A program made the translations under genes and the position numbers. 44,504 nucleotides of DNA from a phage: sequence record PZ386946.1. One strand, given 5' to 3'. Under the pieces are notes generated by a model. It searched no databases. It was not told the origin of the DNA and worked only from the letters and a program-made list of their open reading frames with translations. Below are positions 35,157-38,694 of the stretch, piece by piece (the first letter of the stretch is position 1; the number at the start of each line of letters is the position of its first letter).

Positions 35157-35492
35157 TTAGCTAAATAACTCGTCGTCAGTCATTGTTCCTATGTTCATCA
35201 TCTCTTTTATGTACTTGCTCTCATACCCGCTAAGCGCCTCGAAATTGAAATCAAACGGCCTCTTCAAGCTACCCTTGCTAACAAACTCACCACACTTACC
35301 ATCAATGTATCCCGCACTAAGCATCTTCGCGCAAAACTCTTTTGAAGCCGCGCTGCAAAACTCTCGATGTGATAAACCCGCCGCCTTGCTGAATCTCTGA
35401 GAGTCCTTATGTTGGTATATGAATCGCGCCAAATGCTGGCGCGTGAAAAAGCTGTAAGATTCGCAAAAACGGTATATATCCAGAATAAACAT
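35157..35492 (-). CDS. hypothetical protein
   Basis: 111 aa, GAGG RBS; last gene of minus-strand accessory operon before bidirectional terminator. Confidence 0.45.
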   Translation of the reverse strand: MFILDIYRFCESYSFFTRQHLARFIYQHKDSQRFSKAAGLSHREFCSAASKEFCAKMLSAGYIDGKCGEFVSKGSLKRPFDFNFEALSGYESKYIKEMMNIGTMTDDELFS

Positions 35493-35580
35493 TTCAACCT
35501 CAATGTAGCATAATTGCTAAAATATATGGCCCAACCAAGCAAAGAGCAACAATAACCAACCAGTATTTATTTAGCATAGA

Positions 35581-37164
35581 TCACCCCAATAGTCTTGGAT
35601 TAATGTAAACTTTATCACCAATCAGGCAAGTATAGTTTTTCTCATCAAGCATTGGCAGCAAGTGATCTTTAATCTTCGTCATTACTCCCGCTTGAGCCTC
35701 GAACGGCTTAACCTTTCGAGCCGCTTCATACAACGAACGAATGCCTACTACTCCTTTCCCGTTTTTGCCTTGCTTAATCAGAATGTCAATCAGCTTGTTC
35801 ATCTCGGCATTGTCTCCAGCGTGACCAGCCGCGTTGGCAGATGACAAATAAGTCTTGCTAAGTTCCTGGAACATAATTACAGCTTCCTGCATTGTATCAA
35901 GCTCAATTTCTCTCGACTTCTGAGGGCTACCGCCATTTGGGTTGAACCAGTTGCGCACAGTGTGAAGAACGGCCGCAATCCTGATTGCCTGCTTATCGAA
36001 CTTACCAAGCGCGCCGCGCAACATTGTGTGGGAATACTTACCGCCGTCCGCAAGGTGAGGTTCCATTTCCTGACGCGCGCGGTTGAGATATTTCATTGCT
36101 GAATTACTAACTGTCAACTTAACTTCTTGCTCATTCATTATCTCGTGAACTAAACGGAAGTAATCAGCCTTCAACCCGCCATCAATTGGTTCATAAGTCG
36201 ATTCGCCATTTTCATCAACGAATACACGCTCGCCCAGGAATGACTTTTCACGTACAAGCAGGAAACGCTCAGATACACCGATACCACGCGCGCCAGCGTT
36301 CATGATAGCGTTGATTGTCTCATCCTGTGCAATTACAGAGATGCAACCCATAGCAACGAAACTCATGTTGTTTTCTGCGTTCGCACGCGCGATAGATACG
36401 TTACCCGCATCCCATGCTTTAAGCACAAGCTCACTGTTCGTTTTCTTTGATCCGTCACCATAGGTCATGCCTAATAGTGAGTTAACGCTAGTTGCTTCGT
36501 CAGAAATTACCGCGAAGCTTCCCTGGCGGTTGTTTATTCGCGCAAGACCTTCAGGTGTGGTATCGGACACGGGGAAAACGATATCGCACAGCTTTTCCAG
36601 TTTTTCCTCTAGCTCTTCTTTTTCCTCGAAAAGAGAAGCCATCTCTGACGGAGATTTTTCCTGCTTCATCTCTTTGGATAACGCAGATAGTTTAGCCATG
36701 ATTTTCTTGCGCTCACGCTTTCGCACTTCATTCAGTCTCTCAGTCTCGGCAATCATTGGTGCAATTGAAAGTGAGTTAATGGCTGACTTACCAGTCGATG
36801 GAGGCTGACTTGTAACTACGTACAGAGACGTAGGCTGCTGAGTTCCATGATACTCAACTGTAAAGCGTCCCAGCATGGCAGCGGAAATACACCCCAGGAA
36901 GTGCATATAAGCTGAAGACTCAGGGAACTGAACCGAGCGAGCGATGTTAGATGAGAGTTTTCCGACAATATCAACATCATTGCCTAGTGAGATTACGGGA
37001 TACTTGTCATTAGCCGCATCAATCTCGACTGGCGCTTTCCAGAATGATTGAGACTGGCGATAGCCATTAGCATTGATAGCGACGCGCAGTGGTGGGAGGT
37101 TGTCTGCGGCAGCGATTGCCATAACCTGTTCAACAGATAGTTTATCTTCGTTGAAATCAAACAT
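35581..37164 (-). CDS. DUF3987-like P-loop NTPase with C-terminal wHTH-like domain (putative replication/recombination ATPase)
   Basis: 527 aa; Walker A-like VTSQPPSTGKSA, Walker B-like FAVISDEATS, central coiled-coil, C-terminal GKNGKGVVGIRSLYEAARKV; N- and C-terminal ends shared with ORF 39916..40461. Confidence 0.55.
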   Translation of the reverse strand: MFDFNEDKLSVEQVMAIAAADNLPPLRVAINANGYRQSQSFWKAPVEIDAANDKYPVISLGNDVDIVGKLSSNIARSVQFPESSAYMHFLGCISAAMLGRFTVEYHGTQQPTSLYVVTSQPPSTGKSAINSLSIAPMIAETERLNEVRKRERKKIMAKLSALSKEMKQEKSPSEMASLFEEKEELEEKLEKLCDIVFPVSDTTPEGLARINNRQGSFAVISDEATSVNSLLGMTYGDGSKKTNSELVLKAWDAGNVSIARANAENNMSFVAMGCISVIAQDETINAIMNAGARGIGVSERFLLVREKSFLGERVFVDENGESTYEPIDGGLKADYFRLVHEIMNEQEVKLTVSNSAMKYLNRARQEMEPHLADGGKYSHTMLRGALGKFDKQAIRIAAVLHTVRNWFNPNGGSPQKSREIELDTMQEAVIMFQELSKTYLSSANAAGHAGDNAEMNKLIDILIKQGKNGKGVVGIRSLYEAARKVKPFEAQAGVMTKIKDHLLPMLDEKNYTCLIGDKVYINPRLLG

Positions 37165-37238
37165 TACTTCTCTCCGTATTGTTTCTGAGCGGCCATTATA
37201 TCAACGACCGCTTATAATTCATTATAAATTTGTGCTAT

Positions 37239-37592
37239 TTACAGGTACTGTGCTTCAAATCTGTAGTCGCCGCAGATTGTAATAAAGCCAACCTCATCAT
37301 CCCTGAAAAGTTGCCATGCATTTCCATCTTTATCGTAAATGTATCCAGCGCGCTGACCAAGTCCAGCATGTAGAGCAACTTGATATCGCTTTCCTTGAGT
37401 GAAGTATTTGCGAATAGATGAACGATGATTAACCTTTGTGCAGTAAATTGTCTTTGTCTTTATGTACTTACCACGCTCTTCAAGGTTAATCCATTTCCCA
37501 TCTTTCTTGATTTGCTCAACTCCATCTTTAACTCGAGCCTTGTATAAATTATTACTAGCGTCAACAAAGTTTTTGGTCAGTGTGGTATTCAT
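37239..37592 (-). CDS. hypothetical protein
   Basis: 117 aa; preceded on minus strand by motif, TATATT and ATCGAAACGAAACG leader plus AAAGGA RBS. Confidence 0.5.
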   Translation of the reverse strand: MNTTLTKNFVDASNNLYKARVKDGVEQIKKDGKWINLEERGKYIKTKTIYCTKVNHRSSIRKYFTQGKRYQVALHAGLGQRAGYIYDKDGNAWQLFRDDEVGFITICGDYRFEAQYL

Positions 37593-37629
37593 GATTATTT
37601 TCCTTTCGTCGTTTCGTTTCGATGAGATG

Positions 37630-37676
37630 AATATACAGGAAAAGCCCAGAAGGGCTTTAGCAATTTGTGCTATTTA
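37630..37676 (-). promoter_or_regulatory. bipartite motif copy, minus orientation (variant AATAGCACAAATTGCTAAAG)
   Basis: spacer contains hairpin AGCCC-TTCT-GGGCT plus T-run; followed by ATCGAAACGAAACG leader of 37239..37592. Confidence 0.45.
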
Positions 37677-37917
37677 TCCACCTATTAAACTTATCGCGCT
37701 CCTTCATTGCTTTATCAATACTCCTGAATTTTAAGCAGAGGGGCATCGCATCAACCCCCATGACAATGGCCTCATCAACGCTATACTCGCCAACCAGCCA
37801 AAGCGAATACGTCTGAGTATCTAGTCCGTAATTTCTGTCTTTGTGCAATCTTACTCGTTTAACTTCAAACTTACTGTTGCAGCAAGTTACTATTCTAAGT
37901 AGCTCGGTCTTATTCAT
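37657..37917 (-). CDS. hypothetical protein (alternative start 38028)
   Basis: track ORF 37657..38028; internal ATG 37917 has AAAGG RBS; C-terminus reads through motif (ends INSTNC). Confidence 0.4.
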   Translation of the reverse strand: MNKTELLRIVTCCNSKFEVKRVRLHKDRNYGLDTQTYSLWLVGEYSVDEAIVMGVDAMPLCLKFRSIDKAMKERDKFNRWINSTNC

Positions 37918-38062
37918 TTTTTTGCCTTTTCTATAGCCTTTAGCATAATTTCGTGACTCTCCAACAAGTCTTCGCGAAACCAATCCCCGCAAGGCCATCC
38001 CTTTCCGCTGTAGGCTGCGATGGTGCAAAGATCGTAATAGTTAATATCTGATGGCAGAAGCA

Positions 38063-38302
38063 TCATTTCACCTCATCAAAAGTTGCAATCCCAGGGATGA
38101 ACATCCCAACCTTCCAACCTGCAATGGCAATCCATCCAGAATCGTGCTTGTGCGGTCGCTCAGCGCCATTAATAACCCATTCGTTCGGGATTGTCTTGCC
38201 GTTAATGATTAGCGGCTCAGCTTCGTATACAGAGCCTTTTACGAACGGTGTTAATACATTTTTGTCGGTACTGGTAATGCAATTGGTGCAGCGAATTTTC
38301 AT
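38063..38302 (-). CDS. hypothetical protein
   Basis: 79 aa, start overlaps upstream stop; MKIR N-terminus. Confidence 0.45.
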   Translation of the reverse strand: MKIRCTNCITSTDKNVLTPFVKGSVYEAEPLIINGKTIPNEWVINGAERPHKHDSGWIAIAGWKVGMFIPGIATFDEVK

Positions 38303-38303
38303 A

Positions 38304-38504
38304 CTAATATCTCACAACCTGAAAAGTTAAATGATCTGAAATTGATGCTACGATAAGGTCATCATCATCAGGAGAACAGAATACAGGAATGTAATTATCA
38401 CCCACTACCGCTCTACTACATTCATCGTAATAATACTCATTGCCCCTAGTAAACAACCAAGTCCCATTATCGAAATCATTAAGGCAATTGACTTTAATTT
38501 TCAT
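38304..38504 (-). CDS. hypothetical protein
   Basis: 66 aa; MKIK N-terminus; coupled with neighbours. Confidence 0.45.
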   Translation of the reverse strand: MKIKVNCLNDFDNGTWLFTRGNEYYYDECSRAVVGDNYIPVFCSPDDDDLIVASISDHLTFQVVRY

Positions 38505-38517
38505 ATCTCAACCCTCA

Positions 38518-38694
38518 AATAAATGGTAAGCATTCTGTACATCCAAGCCCATCACAGCACATGTATTCATCTTCTGACTGGAATTTCTTAGCTAAGTCTA
38601 TGTCCAACTTTCCTCGCACTACAAGGTAGGTGTAAACTTCGTTCAGCCCAATCAGTGCGCATTCGTGACGCAACTCGTCTTTATCAATCTTCAT
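38518..38694 (-). CDS. hypothetical Cys-rich small protein (58 aa)
   Basis: not in track; MKIDKD...CCDGLGCTEC; first gene after minus-strand motif copy at 38721..38767. Confidence 0.35.

What the first reader, a model, noticed from the sequence alone, without database searches (positions are those of the whole stretch)
35157..38694. Minus-strand operon of seven genes, mostly small unknown proteins, between the lysis cassette and hub B
Seven tightly coupled minus-strand ORFs run from the motif copy at 38721..38767 to the bidirectional terminator at 35125..35150: 58, 66, 79, 86-123, 117, 527 and 111 aa. Three start with MKI and one is Cys-rich (CCDGLGCTEC). An internal motif copy lies at 37630..37676. 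None matches a function I can recognise apart from the P-loop protein. Early-expressed arrays of small proteins next to a control hub are where host-takeover and anti-defence factors usually reside.
Basis: inference. Interest (0 to 1): 0.6.

Follow-up and report, generated by a model that had tools for sequence, protein, structure and literature searches.

The report
T1-like phage accessory genes plus helicase module
This stretch of a T1-like coliphage is a swappable array of small genes of unknown function joined to the phage family's conserved replicative-helicase trio; that is largely ordinary, except that one conserved partner protein is predicted to share the rare fold of a phage protein known to trigger a bacterial immune sensor.

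Summary
The ORFs, the two motif copies and the bidirectional terminator are real, but the description needs correcting. There are eight well-supported genes, and possibly a ninth of 25 aa. The "86-123 aa" ORF is really a missed 50-aa gene plus an 86-aa gene. A third promoter-motif copy lies before the helicase, so the block reads as three tandem units, not one demonstrated operon.

The window is a Braunvirinae (Drexlerviridae, T1-like) coliphage, and the block has two parts.
- **Variable half (g1-g4).** These genes are lineage-specific or mosaic. g4 is shared with T-even and rV5-like phages. g2 is rare and fast-evolving.
- **Family-core half (g5-g6-g7, equivalent to T1 p07/p09/p10).** g6 is a DUF3987 (SF6) replicative helicase. 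g7 is a winged-helix protein with an invariant DDELF tail. g5 is an all-beta protein.

The anti-defence reading is therefore plausible for the variable half only. It is unproven, and it is wrong for about two thirds of the bases. Interest is moderate to low: a new member of a known kind.

The parts
38695..38766 (-). Promoter-type motif copy 1 and leader in front of g1: AATAGCACtttttGCCAAAG, a spacer, TATAGT, CATCAAAACGA, then a ribosome-binding site.
   Evidence: In Bas11 the homologous upstream region of gene 54 drives expression from a plasmid, and escape mutations there lower Gp54 levels (PMC11578894).
38802..38829 (-). Sigma-70-like promoter match (TTGCCA, 16 nt, GATAAT; 10 of 12 positions) in the hub, upstream of motif copy 1.
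   Evidence: The number of such matches in the region is no higher than in shuffled sequence, so this is weak evidence.
38515..38694 (-). g1: 59 aa, acidic, with a C-terminal four-cysteine knuckle (CCDGLGCTECLPFI). Matches phrog_9053. Found only in Braunvirinae and Rogunavirinae.
   Evidence: dN/dS is 0.03-0.18. There is a weak resemblance to the C-terminus of Bas11 gp50 (E 0.035).
38304..38504 (-). g2: 66 aa, acidic, with no PHROG match. It is a rare allele in a hypervariable slot. It has the same position and length as Bas11 Gp54 but no sequence similarity to it.
   Evidence: (7 phage records). dN/dS is 0.90 against the SU57 allele.
38063..38302 (-). g3: 79 aa, phrog_4448, conserved in the Braunvirinae/Rogunavirus clade with distant Klebsiella and Enterobacter phage homologues.
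   Evidence: dN/dS is 0.05-0.15.
It is coupled by ATGA overlaps to both g3 and g4. Matches phrog_4548.
   Evidence: dN/dS is 0.07-0.13.
37657..37917 (-). g4: 86 aa, basic, phrog_4423. It is a promiscuous accessory gene. It was found in none of the ten related Drexlerviridae loci checked (seven of them Braunvirinae or Rogunavirus), but is present in Tunavirus ADB-2, T-even, Vequintavirinae and Webervirus phages. Its last codons (NSTNC, stop) are the motif itself.
37593..37674 (-). Motif copy 2, with an embedded hairpin (AAGCCC-ttct-GGGCTT, 37642-37657), TATATT (37630-37635) and the leader CATCGAAACGA. It marks the boundary between the accessory array and g5.
   Evidence: The hairpin has a weak T tract, and the terminator scan did not call it.
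37239..37592 (-). g5: 117 aa, basic (pI 9.5), all-beta. A family-core gene (T1 p07, phrog_2684). The predicted beta-barrel is Gp54(Bas11)-like.
37165..37239 (-). Motif copy 3 (degenerate): AATAGCACaaattTATAAT, a GC hairpin, then TATAAT (37195-37200). It lies in front of the helicase.
35581..37164 (-). g6: 527 aa, a DUF3987 (SF6, MCM-related) replicative helicase (T1 p09). Walker A is SQPPSTGKS at residues 119-127. Walker B is FAVISDE at residues 217-223.
   Evidence: PF13148, 6e-42; 925 phage records. Family properties come from PMC4889955 and PMC11724360.
35500..35577 (-). g6b: a possible 25-aa hydrophobic peptide (MLNKYWLVIVALCLVGPYILAIMLH) inside a rare 88-nt insert between g6 and g7.
   Evidence: found only in PCEc3 and PsgS01F. 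dN/dS is 0.55 on 24 codons. Coding status is open.
35157..35492 (-). g7: 111 aa. A winged-helix domain (residues 1-72) followed by a disordered acidic tail with an invariant DDELF. A family-core gene (T1 p10, phrog_2794), placed directly after the helicase in most relatives examined.
35133..35150 (.). Bidirectional intrinsic terminator shared with the convergent lysis cassette.
   Evidence: The same feature is annotated in relatives.

Best explanation
The block is the leftward arm of a Braunvirinae (T1-like) coliphage. It joins two things of different evolutionary character, separated by copies of the phage's standard gene-junction motif.

**Family-core replication trio (g5-g6-g7; T1 p07, p09, p10).**
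- g6 is the DUF3987/SF6 hexameric-type replicative helicase.
- g7 is translationally linked to g6. It is a winged-helix protein whose disordered acidic tail carries an invariant DDELF peptide. I infer that it docks the helicase, or DNA, to a partner protein.
- g5 is a basic all-beta protein with a Gp54-type six-stranded SH3-like barrel. I infer that it is a nucleic-acid-binding or helicase-associated cofactor.

**Accessory array (g1, g2, g3, g3b, g4).** These small genes sit next to the hub promoter. Their slots are refilled by recombination at or next to the motif. g4 lies exactly at the 5' edge of a motif copy, and the motif encodes its last five residues. By analogy with gene 54 and the methyltransferases in the same block of relatives, these genes are dispensable host-interaction factors. 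At least some probably meet host defences, either as inhibitors or as triggers.

**Shown:** gene structure, conservation pattern, family assignments, fold predictions and synteny with Bas11.

**Inferred:** every biochemical role except the helicase family assignment, the expression timing, and any anti-defence activity.
For: - **Identity of the phage.** The region is 86-89% identical at the nucleotide level to Braunvirinae phages.
- **Core versus variable genes.** g5, g6 and g7 are found in all ten Drexlerviridae loci checked, spanning five lineages. g1, g3 and g3b occur only in the Braunvirinae/Rogunavirus clade. g2 occurs in one of the ten loci and g4 in none.
- **Helicase.** g6 matches PF13148 at 6e-42, has Walker A and B motifs, and has homologues in 925 phage records. 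[quoted passage not shown]
- **Synteny.** The Bas11 block is syntenic, and gene 54 is the second gene from the hub. Gp54 homologues occupy the same block in Bas07, U136B and ADB-2.
- **Slot variability** between close relatives is shown.
- **g4 spread.** g4 occurs in T-even, rV5-like and Webervirus phages.
- **Motif at the g4 junction.** The motif encodes NSTNC-stop at the end of g4. In most relatives that lack g4, it encodes the same ending for g3b.
- **Selection.** All genes but g2 are under purifying selection.
- **Relatives' experiments.** Gene 54 and its neighbours are dispensable, and the region upstream of gene 54 acts as a promoter in E. coli.
Against: - No experiment or transcript data exist for this phage or its subfamily.
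- The g5-Gp54 link rests on a medium-confidence model. Sequence does not support it: hhalign probability is below 1%.
- g7's winged helix is generic, with no specific subfamily match (best Foldseek E 0.57). DDELF is not at the extreme C-terminus in most family members, so it is not a strict mimic of the SSB tail.
- None of g1-g4 resembles any characterised anti-defence protein. They could equally be regulators or replication and recombination accessories.
- The dN/dS of 0.9 for g2 comes from one pair and 65 codons.
- The Phold annotation of a T1 p07 homologue as 'cytidine deaminase' disagrees with my model.
Confidence: 0.7

Rival explanations
1. One reading: the whole block is one early operon of host-takeover and anti-defence factors, expressed from the hub.
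For: - The block lies next to a 700-bp hub that has a sigma-70-like promoter match.
- It contains small, acidic or basic proteins of unknown function.
- A relative's gene in this block (Gp54 of Bas11) interacts with a defence system and is dispensable.
- Methyltransferases occupy the same block in other subfamilies.
Against: - Two thirds of the block is a family-core trio centred on the replicative helicase.
- Three motif copies and a hairpin subdivide the block.
- The motif also precedes structural genes, so it gives no information on timing.
- No gene matches a known anti-defence family.
Confidence: 0.2
2. All the small proteins, g1-g4 included, are replication, recombination or regulatory accessories of the helicase module. 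Examples would be origin-binding, helicase-loading or transcription factors. None of them is concerned with host defences.
For: - They share an orientation, and partly share translational coupling, with the helicase module.
- g1, g3 and g3b are conserved and under strong purifying selection within the clade.
- g1 has a zinc-knuckle-like motif, and g4 and g5 are basic.
- T1-like phages lack their own DNA polymerase and must recruit host replication proteins. This rests on established knowledge of T1, not on a test here.
Against: - g1, g3 and g3b are absent from other Drexlerviridae subfamilies that carry the same helicase trio.
- g2 and g4 are sporadic.
- g4 occurs in T-even and rV5-like phages whose replication systems are unrelated.
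- Deletions of the equivalent genes in Bas11 are viable.
Confidence: 0.2
3. g5 (the T1 p07 family) is a cytidine deaminase, as Phold labelled its homologue in phage KanT1.
For: The supplementary table of PMC13164509 lists CDS_0079 (417 nt, directly upstream of the helicase) as 'cytidine deaminase'.
Against: - The alignment of 20 family members has no HxE or PCxxC zinc-binding motifs.
- The AF2 model has 11 strands and no helix, which is incompatible with the alpha/beta deaminase fold.
- No Pfam or NCBIfam deaminase family is hit.
Confidence: 0.03
4. Some of the short ORFs are chance reading frames and not genes.
For: - g2 has no PHROG match, and its dN/dS is about 0.9.
- The 25-aa ORF has only one independent relative and dN/dS 0.55.
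Against: - g1, g3, g3b, g4, g5 and g7 each match a PHROG family at E of 1e-30 or better, and have dN/dS of 0.18 or less.
- All have Shine-Dalgarno-like sequences.
- The g2 frame is kept open at full length in SU57, and at 40-48% identity in six other phages.
Confidence: 0.1

Closest known systems
Genes 45-55 of phage Bas11 (JohannLBurckhardt, Tempevirinae), including gene 54, which encodes the CapRelSJ46 activator Gp54 (PDB 9AXB; Zhang et al., Nature 2024, PMC11578894)
   Same: - The architecture matches: a convergent lysis cassette and terminator, a g7 homologue (46% identity), the helicase (68%), a g5 homologue (40%), then an array of small genes running up to a roughly 700-bp hub.
- Motif-type promoters lie in front of the small genes.
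- g2 has the same length (66 aa) and the same ordinal position as gene 54.
   Different: - No protein in the window is a sequence homologue of Gp54.
- The Gp54 family (215 phage records) returned no Braunvirinae record among the rows and organism tallies shown.
- The window has no Dcm methyltransferase in the block.
- g5 is a two-part core protein, not a 66-aa stand-alone accessory protein.
- CapRel activation was not tested.
Left-arm genes 1-10 of coliphage T1 (T1 p01-p10), read here through Shfl1 and KanT1 annotation
   Same: The order p07 - p09 (helicase) - p10, followed by a convergent spanin, endolysin and holin, is conserved, with small unknown genes upstream.
   Different: The upstream small genes (T1 p01-p06) are unrelated to g1-g4. 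T1-like relatives carry a methyltransferase and a Gp54 homologue in this arm.
Phage accessory regions (hotspots of variable, non-essential, horizontally exchanged genes between core genes; Silas et al., bioRxiv 10.1101/2023.04.06.535777) and T-even hyperplastic regions
   Same: - Gene content varies between conserved flanks.
- g4 lies in the frd-32 plastic region of T-even phages.
- One slot appears to be diversifying rapidly.
- A repeated regulatory motif lies at the cassette boundaries.
   Different: No counter-defence or cell-death phenotype has been assigned to any gene here.
DUF3987 / SF6 replicative helicases of phages and mobile elements (Kazlauskas et al. 2016, PMC4889955; AgaPH, PMC11724360)
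   Same: g6 has a Pfam DUF3987 match well above threshold, Walker A and B motifs, and a conserved C-terminal region of about 65 aa where the family has a winged helix-turn-helix.
   Different: - g6 is not fused to a primase and is not adjacent to one.
- It has an N-terminal 42-aa module that it shares with a helicase-less paralogue on the other side of the hub.
- Its activity and polarity are untested.

Membership tests
DUF3987 / SF6 replicative helicase (g6) | A Pfam PF13148 match above the gathering score | tested here: met
   144.5 bits against a cut-off of 27, E 6.2e-42, covering positions 3-349 of the 364-position profile. Also phrog_2373 'DNA helicase' at 1e-258.
DUF3987 / SF6 replicative helicase (g6) | Walker A and Walker B (DE) ATPase motifs | tested here: met
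   SQPPSTGKS at residues 119-127 and FAVISDE at residues 217-223. These motifs are required for activity in AgaPH.
DUF3987 / SF6 replicative helicase (g6) | [quoted passage not shown] | not tested
   The family feature is described in PMC4889955. g6 residues 465-527 are conserved and are retained in the 181-aa paralogue. No structure prediction was run for g6.
DUF3987 / SF6 replicative helicase (g6) | ATP-dependent DNA unwinding | not testable with these tools
   This needs a biochemical assay.
Gp54(Bas11)-type CapRel trigger | Sequence homology to Gp54 (phrog_7421) | tested here: not met
   blastp and tblastn of Gp54 against the window's proteins and DNA found nothing significant. hhalign probability was below 1% for g2, g3 and g5.
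Gp54(Bas11)-type CapRel trigger | A six-stranded SH3-like beta-barrel fold (PDB 9AXB) | tested here: met
Gp54(Bas11)-type CapRel trigger | Location in the small-gene array between the hub and the helicase | tested here: met
   Gene 54 is the second gene from the hub in Bas11. Homologues lie in the same arm in Bas07, U136B and ADB-2.
Gp54(Bas11)-type CapRel trigger | Direct binding to and activation of CapRelSJ46 | not testable with these tools
   Even close Gp54 homologues (Bas5, Bas8, Bas10, SECphi27) do not activate CapRelSJ46. Activity cannot be inferred from the fold.
Phage accessory region / accessory genes | Variable gene content between conserved flanking core genes in related genomes | tested here: met
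   - The slot between g1 and g3 holds at least four divergent alleles.
- The slot between g3b and g5 holds at least five different cargoes in seven genomes.
- The slots between g5 and g6, and between g6 and g7, are occasionally filled.
Phage accessory region / accessory genes | Horizontal transfer across phage lineages | tested here: met
   g4 is 70% identical to its homologue in Tunavirus ADB-2 and 55-58% identical to homologues in Tequatrovirus, Mosigvirus and Vequintavirinae, and also has Webervirus homologues. Not met for g1, g3 and g3b, which are clade-restricted.
Phage accessory region / accessory genes | Non-essentiality | not testable with these tools
   Shown only for the equivalent region of Bas11, where deletions of gene 54 and nearby genes are viable.
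Known anti-defence proteins | Similarity to a characterised inhibitor of RM, CRISPR, CBASS, Thoeris or similar systems | tested here: inconclusive
   Pfam, NCBIfam, PHROGs and PDB sequence searches gave no informative hit for g1-g4. No dedicated anti-defence HMM library was available. PADLOC holds defence models, not anti-defence models.
Cytidine deaminase (the Phold label of the T1 p07 homologue) | H(C)xE and PCxxC zinc-binding motifs within an alpha/beta fold | tested here: not met
Single operon | One promoter, one terminator and no internal transcription signals | tested here: not met
   There are three copies of the genome-wide promoter-type motif, at 38766, 37674 and 37239, and a hairpin after g4. 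Read-through cannot be excluded without RNA data.

The most novel reading that the evidence does not exclude
The rare six-stranded Gp54 barrel, known only as an orphan trigger of CapRelSJ46, is really the signature domain of a protein that all Drexlerviridae carry: g5 (T1 p07), encoded next to the replicative helicase.

On this reading, Gp54-like stand-alone proteins are duplicated, fast-evolving offshoots of a replication cofactor. The slot-A alleles such as g2 may belong to the same group. Host sensors of the CapRel type would then be targeting a fold that the phage cannot lose.

The block would become a natural system for studying how an essential phage domain spawns decoys or triggers in an arms race.
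Probability: 0.25. Interest if true: 0.6.

Novelty: new member of a known kind. Interest (0 to 1): 0.38.

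Why it matters
Arrays of small unknown genes in virulent phages are the main reservoir of undiscovered anti-defence proteins and immune triggers. This block is the Braunvirinae counterpart of the one place in Drexlerviridae where such a protein (Gp54 of Bas11) has been characterised.

Separating the block into a core helicase trio and a swappable array tells an experimenter which genes to screen for defence phenotypes: g1, g2, g3, g3b and g4. It also says which to treat as replication factors: g5 and g7.

The predicted Gp54-type fold in a family-core protein offers a testable clue to the unknown native function of Gp54. 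It may also explain why a host sensor recognises that fold. Otherwise the block is typical phage dark matter, already annotated as hypothetical proteins in more than 100 genomes.

Tried and rejected
- **Library searches.** Pfam, NCBIfam and PADLOC gave nothing informative for any small protein. The only hits were weak chance matches, for example NPHI_C, Sul7s and JetC.
- **PDB sequence searches.** Searches with g1, g2, g3, the g4 profile, the g5 profile and g6 found nothing significant. g2 weakly resembles a clostridial toxin repeat (E 0.005, with no stretch passing) and I dismissed it.
- **Profile-profile comparisons.** Gp54 or its family against the g5 family, and g2 and g3 against the g5 family, were not significant. 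No homology is claimed from sequence.
- **Exhaustive HMMER search with the g4 family.** It found 11 single-domain clusters, with no fusions and no bacterial context to borrow a function from.
- **Rfam and repeat scans.** There is no RNA family hit, and no repeat beyond the motif.
- **Literature searches.** Searches for a Drexlerviridae transcriptome or anti-defence genes found no timing or function data for these genes. A search for the motif string returned only irrelevant papers.
- **Rejected readings.** The 123-aa TTG reading of g4 overlaps g3b, and the PHROG match begins at the ATG form. The cytidine deaminase label for g5 is rejected. DDELF as a strict SSB-tail mimic is rejected because it is not C-terminal in most homologues.

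Full report
**What the window is.** The 3.7 kb around the finding is 86-89% identical at the nucleotide level to Braunvirinae coliphages (Drexlerviridae, T1-like). These include vB_EcoS_UALMA_PCEc3, CEB_EC3a, Veterinaerplatzvirus T145P1, and the BASEL phages AugustePiccard and JeanPiccard. In all of them the region is annotated as a 'DNA helicase' surrounded by hypothetical proteins, convergent with the holin-endolysin-spanin cassette.

**Check of the observation.** The listed minus-strand ORFs exist at the stated coordinates. Three start with MKI, and g1 ends CCDGLGCTECLPFI. The hairpin terminator at 35133-35150 scores on both strands. Three points need correcting.

1. The '86-123 aa' ORF is two genes in different frames. 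A 50-aa gene (g3b, 37914-38066) overlaps the g3 stop by ATGA, and its own stop overlaps the g4 ATG by ATGA. It matches phrog_4548 (1.5e-30). It is present in six relatives and has dN/dS 0.07-0.13. The PHROG match of g4 begins at the ATG form (positions 1-85 of 86), so 86 aa is the right length.
2. There is a third, degenerate motif copy between g5 and the helicase: AATAGCAC at 37232-37239 and TATAAT at 37195-37200.
3. g1 is 59 aa, not 58. A 25-aa, very hydrophobic ORF fills most of the 88-nt gap between the helicase and g7. That insert exists only in PCEc3 and PsgS01F, and its dN/dS is 0.55 on 24 codons. I leave its coding status open.

All the other genes have Shine-Dalgarno-like sequences. 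Their dN/dS values are 0.01-0.18, except g2 at 0.90 against its only close allele.

**Transcription units.** The core AATAGCAC occurs 14 times in the window against 1.7 expected, always on the coding strand. The full element has these parts in order:
- a stop codon;
- AATAGCAC(G)AATTGCTAAA, in which TAGCA-N5-TGCTA is palindromic;
- about 20 variable nucleotides, often forming a GC hairpin;
- TATAGT;
- a conserved leader, CATCGAAACGA, followed by the ribosome-binding site.

It also precedes structural genes (positions 1562, 20126 and 21948), so it carries no early-specific information. Within the finding it divides the block into g1-g4, g5, and g6-(g6b)-g7. Gaps inside the units are -4 to 10 nt. 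The two gaps that carry a motif are 64 and 74 nt. The hairpin after g4 has a poor T tract and was not called a terminator, so read-through remains possible. In Bas11 the region upstream of gene 54 carries the same kind of element. Cloned with gene 54 on a plasmid, that region drives expression in E. coli, and phage escape mutations there lower Gp54 levels (PMC11578894). This is indirect evidence that the element is a promoter read by host RNA polymerase.

**Two evolutionary layers.** I ran tblastn of every gene against ten Drexlerviridae loci.
- g5, g6 and g7 are in all ten, across Braunvirinae, Rogunavirus, Tlsvirus, Hanrivervirus, Tunavirus and Webervirus, at 36-99% identity. They correspond to T1 p07, p09 and p10.
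- g1, g3 and g3b are confined to the Braunvirinae/Rogunavirus clade.
- g2 has only seven phage matches.
- g4 is in none of the ten loci.

Reading the ORFs of six close relatives shows fixed slots with changing content.
- Between g1 and g3 there are at least four highly divergent 57-66 aa 'MKIK(L/V)...' alleles.
- Between g3b and g5 there are at least five unrelated cargoes, or none.
- Extra genes occasionally sit between g5 and the helicase.
- Between the helicase and g7, SU57 has an HNH-type endonuclease and the window has the 25-aa ORF.

In other subfamilies the same arm carries Dcm-type or other DNA methyltransferases and HNH genes.

**The accessory genes.** g4 (86 aa, basic) has 350 phage matches. 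The best is 70% identity in Tunavirus ADB-2. Next come 55-58% matches in T-even phages, where it lies between frd.2 and frd.1 in the plastic frd-32 region, and in Vequintavirinae, followed by Webervirus. An exhaustive HMMER search found only 11 clusters, all single-domain.

Its last five codons plus the stop (NSTNC*) are the motif itself, read in its third frame. In five of the six close relatives that lack g4, it is g3b that ends ...NSTNC*. The cassette therefore sits exactly at the 5' edge of a motif copy, which suggests that the motif serves as the recombination junction. That last step is an inference.

g1 has a C-terminal four-cysteine knuckle that faintly resembles the C-terminus of Bas11 gp50. 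None of g1-g4 matches any Pfam, NCBIfam, PADLOC or PDB entry.

**The core trio.**

*g6.* It matches DUF3987 (PF13148, 6e-42), has Walker A and B motifs, and has homologues in 925 phage records. [quoted passage not shown] One member is a demonstrated 5'-3' helicase (PMC11724360).

*g7.* Its homologues are found only in Drexlerviridae. Its AF2 model (pLDDT 78) is a winged helix followed by a disordered acidic tail. The structural hits listed are almost all winged-helix proteins, with none specific. DDELF is invariant across the family. I infer a DNA- or helicase-binding adaptor with a docking peptide.

*g5.* It is basic (pI 9.5). Its model is entirely beta (pLDDT 72). This, together with the absence of HxE and PCxxC motifs, contradicts the 'cytidine deaminase' label that Phold gave its KanT1 homologue.

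Bas11 (MZ501085) has the same block: a g7 homologue, the helicase, gp47, a g5 homologue, Dcm, gp50-53, gene 54, gp55, then the hub. Gene 54 is thus the second gene from the hub, like g2. Gp54 homologues (215 phage records, with none from Braunvirinae among the records and tallies shown) occupy the same arm in Bas07, U136B and ADB-2. In ADB-2 the Gp54 homologue lies two genes from the g4 homologue.

Sequence comparisons between Gp54 or its family and g2, g3 or the g5 family are not significant. The relationship is therefore at fold level only, and it rests on a medium-confidence model.

**Verdict on the interpretation.** The idea that small genes next to the hub are host-interaction or anti-defence candidates is reasonable for g1-g4. 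Synteny with the one characterised example supports it. It is not demonstrated, and it does not apply to g5-g7, which make up most of the block. Early expression is not shown.

**Novelty.** The region is a known kind of thing: a phage accessory array joined to a conserved replicative module. Its homologues are already deposited as hypothetical proteins in more than 100 genomes. The new points are these:
- the corrected gene model;
- the split into core and accessory genes;
- the placement of the g4 cassette at the edge of a motif copy;
- the winged-helix-plus-DDELF partner of the helicase;
- the predicted Gp54-type fold in a family-core protein.

Noticed in passing
window 39916-40461 (+): A 181-aa ORF (phrog_7327) is an internal-deletion paralogue of the helicase g6. 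Its residues 3-44 match g6 residues 1-42 (74% identity), and its residues 69-131 match g6 residues 465-527 (54% identity). The whole ATPase core is missing, and it has a unique 50-aa tail. It is found in Braunvirinae and Rogunavirus C119 only. It may be an origin- or partner-binding regulator, or a competitor of the helicase.
   Followed up: partly
window, 14 sites: 1562, 20126, 21948, 25787, 29820, 30106, 32594, 33682, 37239, 37674, 38766, 40457, 41270, 42094: A genome-wide gene-junction element. It consists of AATAGCAC(G)AATTGCTAAA (palindromic TAGCA-N5-TGCTA), a variable spacer of about 20 nt that often forms a GC hairpin, TATAGT, and the conserved leader CATCGAAACGA. The first part supplies a stop codon in all three frames: T|AA, aaTAG, and AAT AGC ACn AAT TGC TAA, which reads as NSTNC-stop. 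It is found before structural genes as well as non-structural ones.
   Followed up: partly
window 35500-35577 (-): A 25-aa, strongly hydrophobic ORF (MLNKYWLVIVALCLVGPYILAIMLH) with its own ribosome-binding site. It lies in an 88-nt insert between the helicase and g7 that only PCEc3 and PsgS01F share. dN/dS is 0.55 on 24 codons, so it is unclear whether it codes for a protein.
   Followed up: partly
window 38304-38504 (-) and the same slot in L001-L005, L010: The slot between g1 and g3 holds very divergent 57-66 aa acidic 'MKIK(L/V)...' alleles in different Braunvirinae. The window's allele shows dN/dS 0.90 against its closest relative, from a single pair.
   Followed up: partly
window 38515-38694 (-); L013 6738-6962: The C-terminal cysteine knuckle of g1 (CCDGLGCTECLPFI) resembles the C-terminus of Bas11 gp50 (DCGCEFDPACKRCFPF), at blastp E 0.035. 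This could be a shared small zinc-binding module across subfamilies.
   Followed up: no
L012 (phage ADB-2) 2756-2950 and 3501-3761: In Tunavirus ADB-2 a Gp54 homologue (B508_00065) and the closest g4 homologue (B508_00075) lie two genes apart on the same strand. The two accessory families therefore share arrays.
   Followed up: no
window 39395-39916 (+): The first rightward gene from the hub encodes a 173-aa DUF7174 protein (PF23796, 5e-51; phrog_4841) of unknown function. It ends where the helicase paralogue starts, with an ATGA-type junction at 39916.
   Followed up: no
public records PP134917.1 and PQ314493.1 (hits H1, H2): 'Pseudomonas phage PsgS01F' and E. coli phage vB_EcoS_UALMA_PCEc3 have the same length (44,679 bp) and identical match statistics. 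Several 'Campylobacter phage' records also match this coliphage region. The host labels of these records look doubtful.
   Followed up: no
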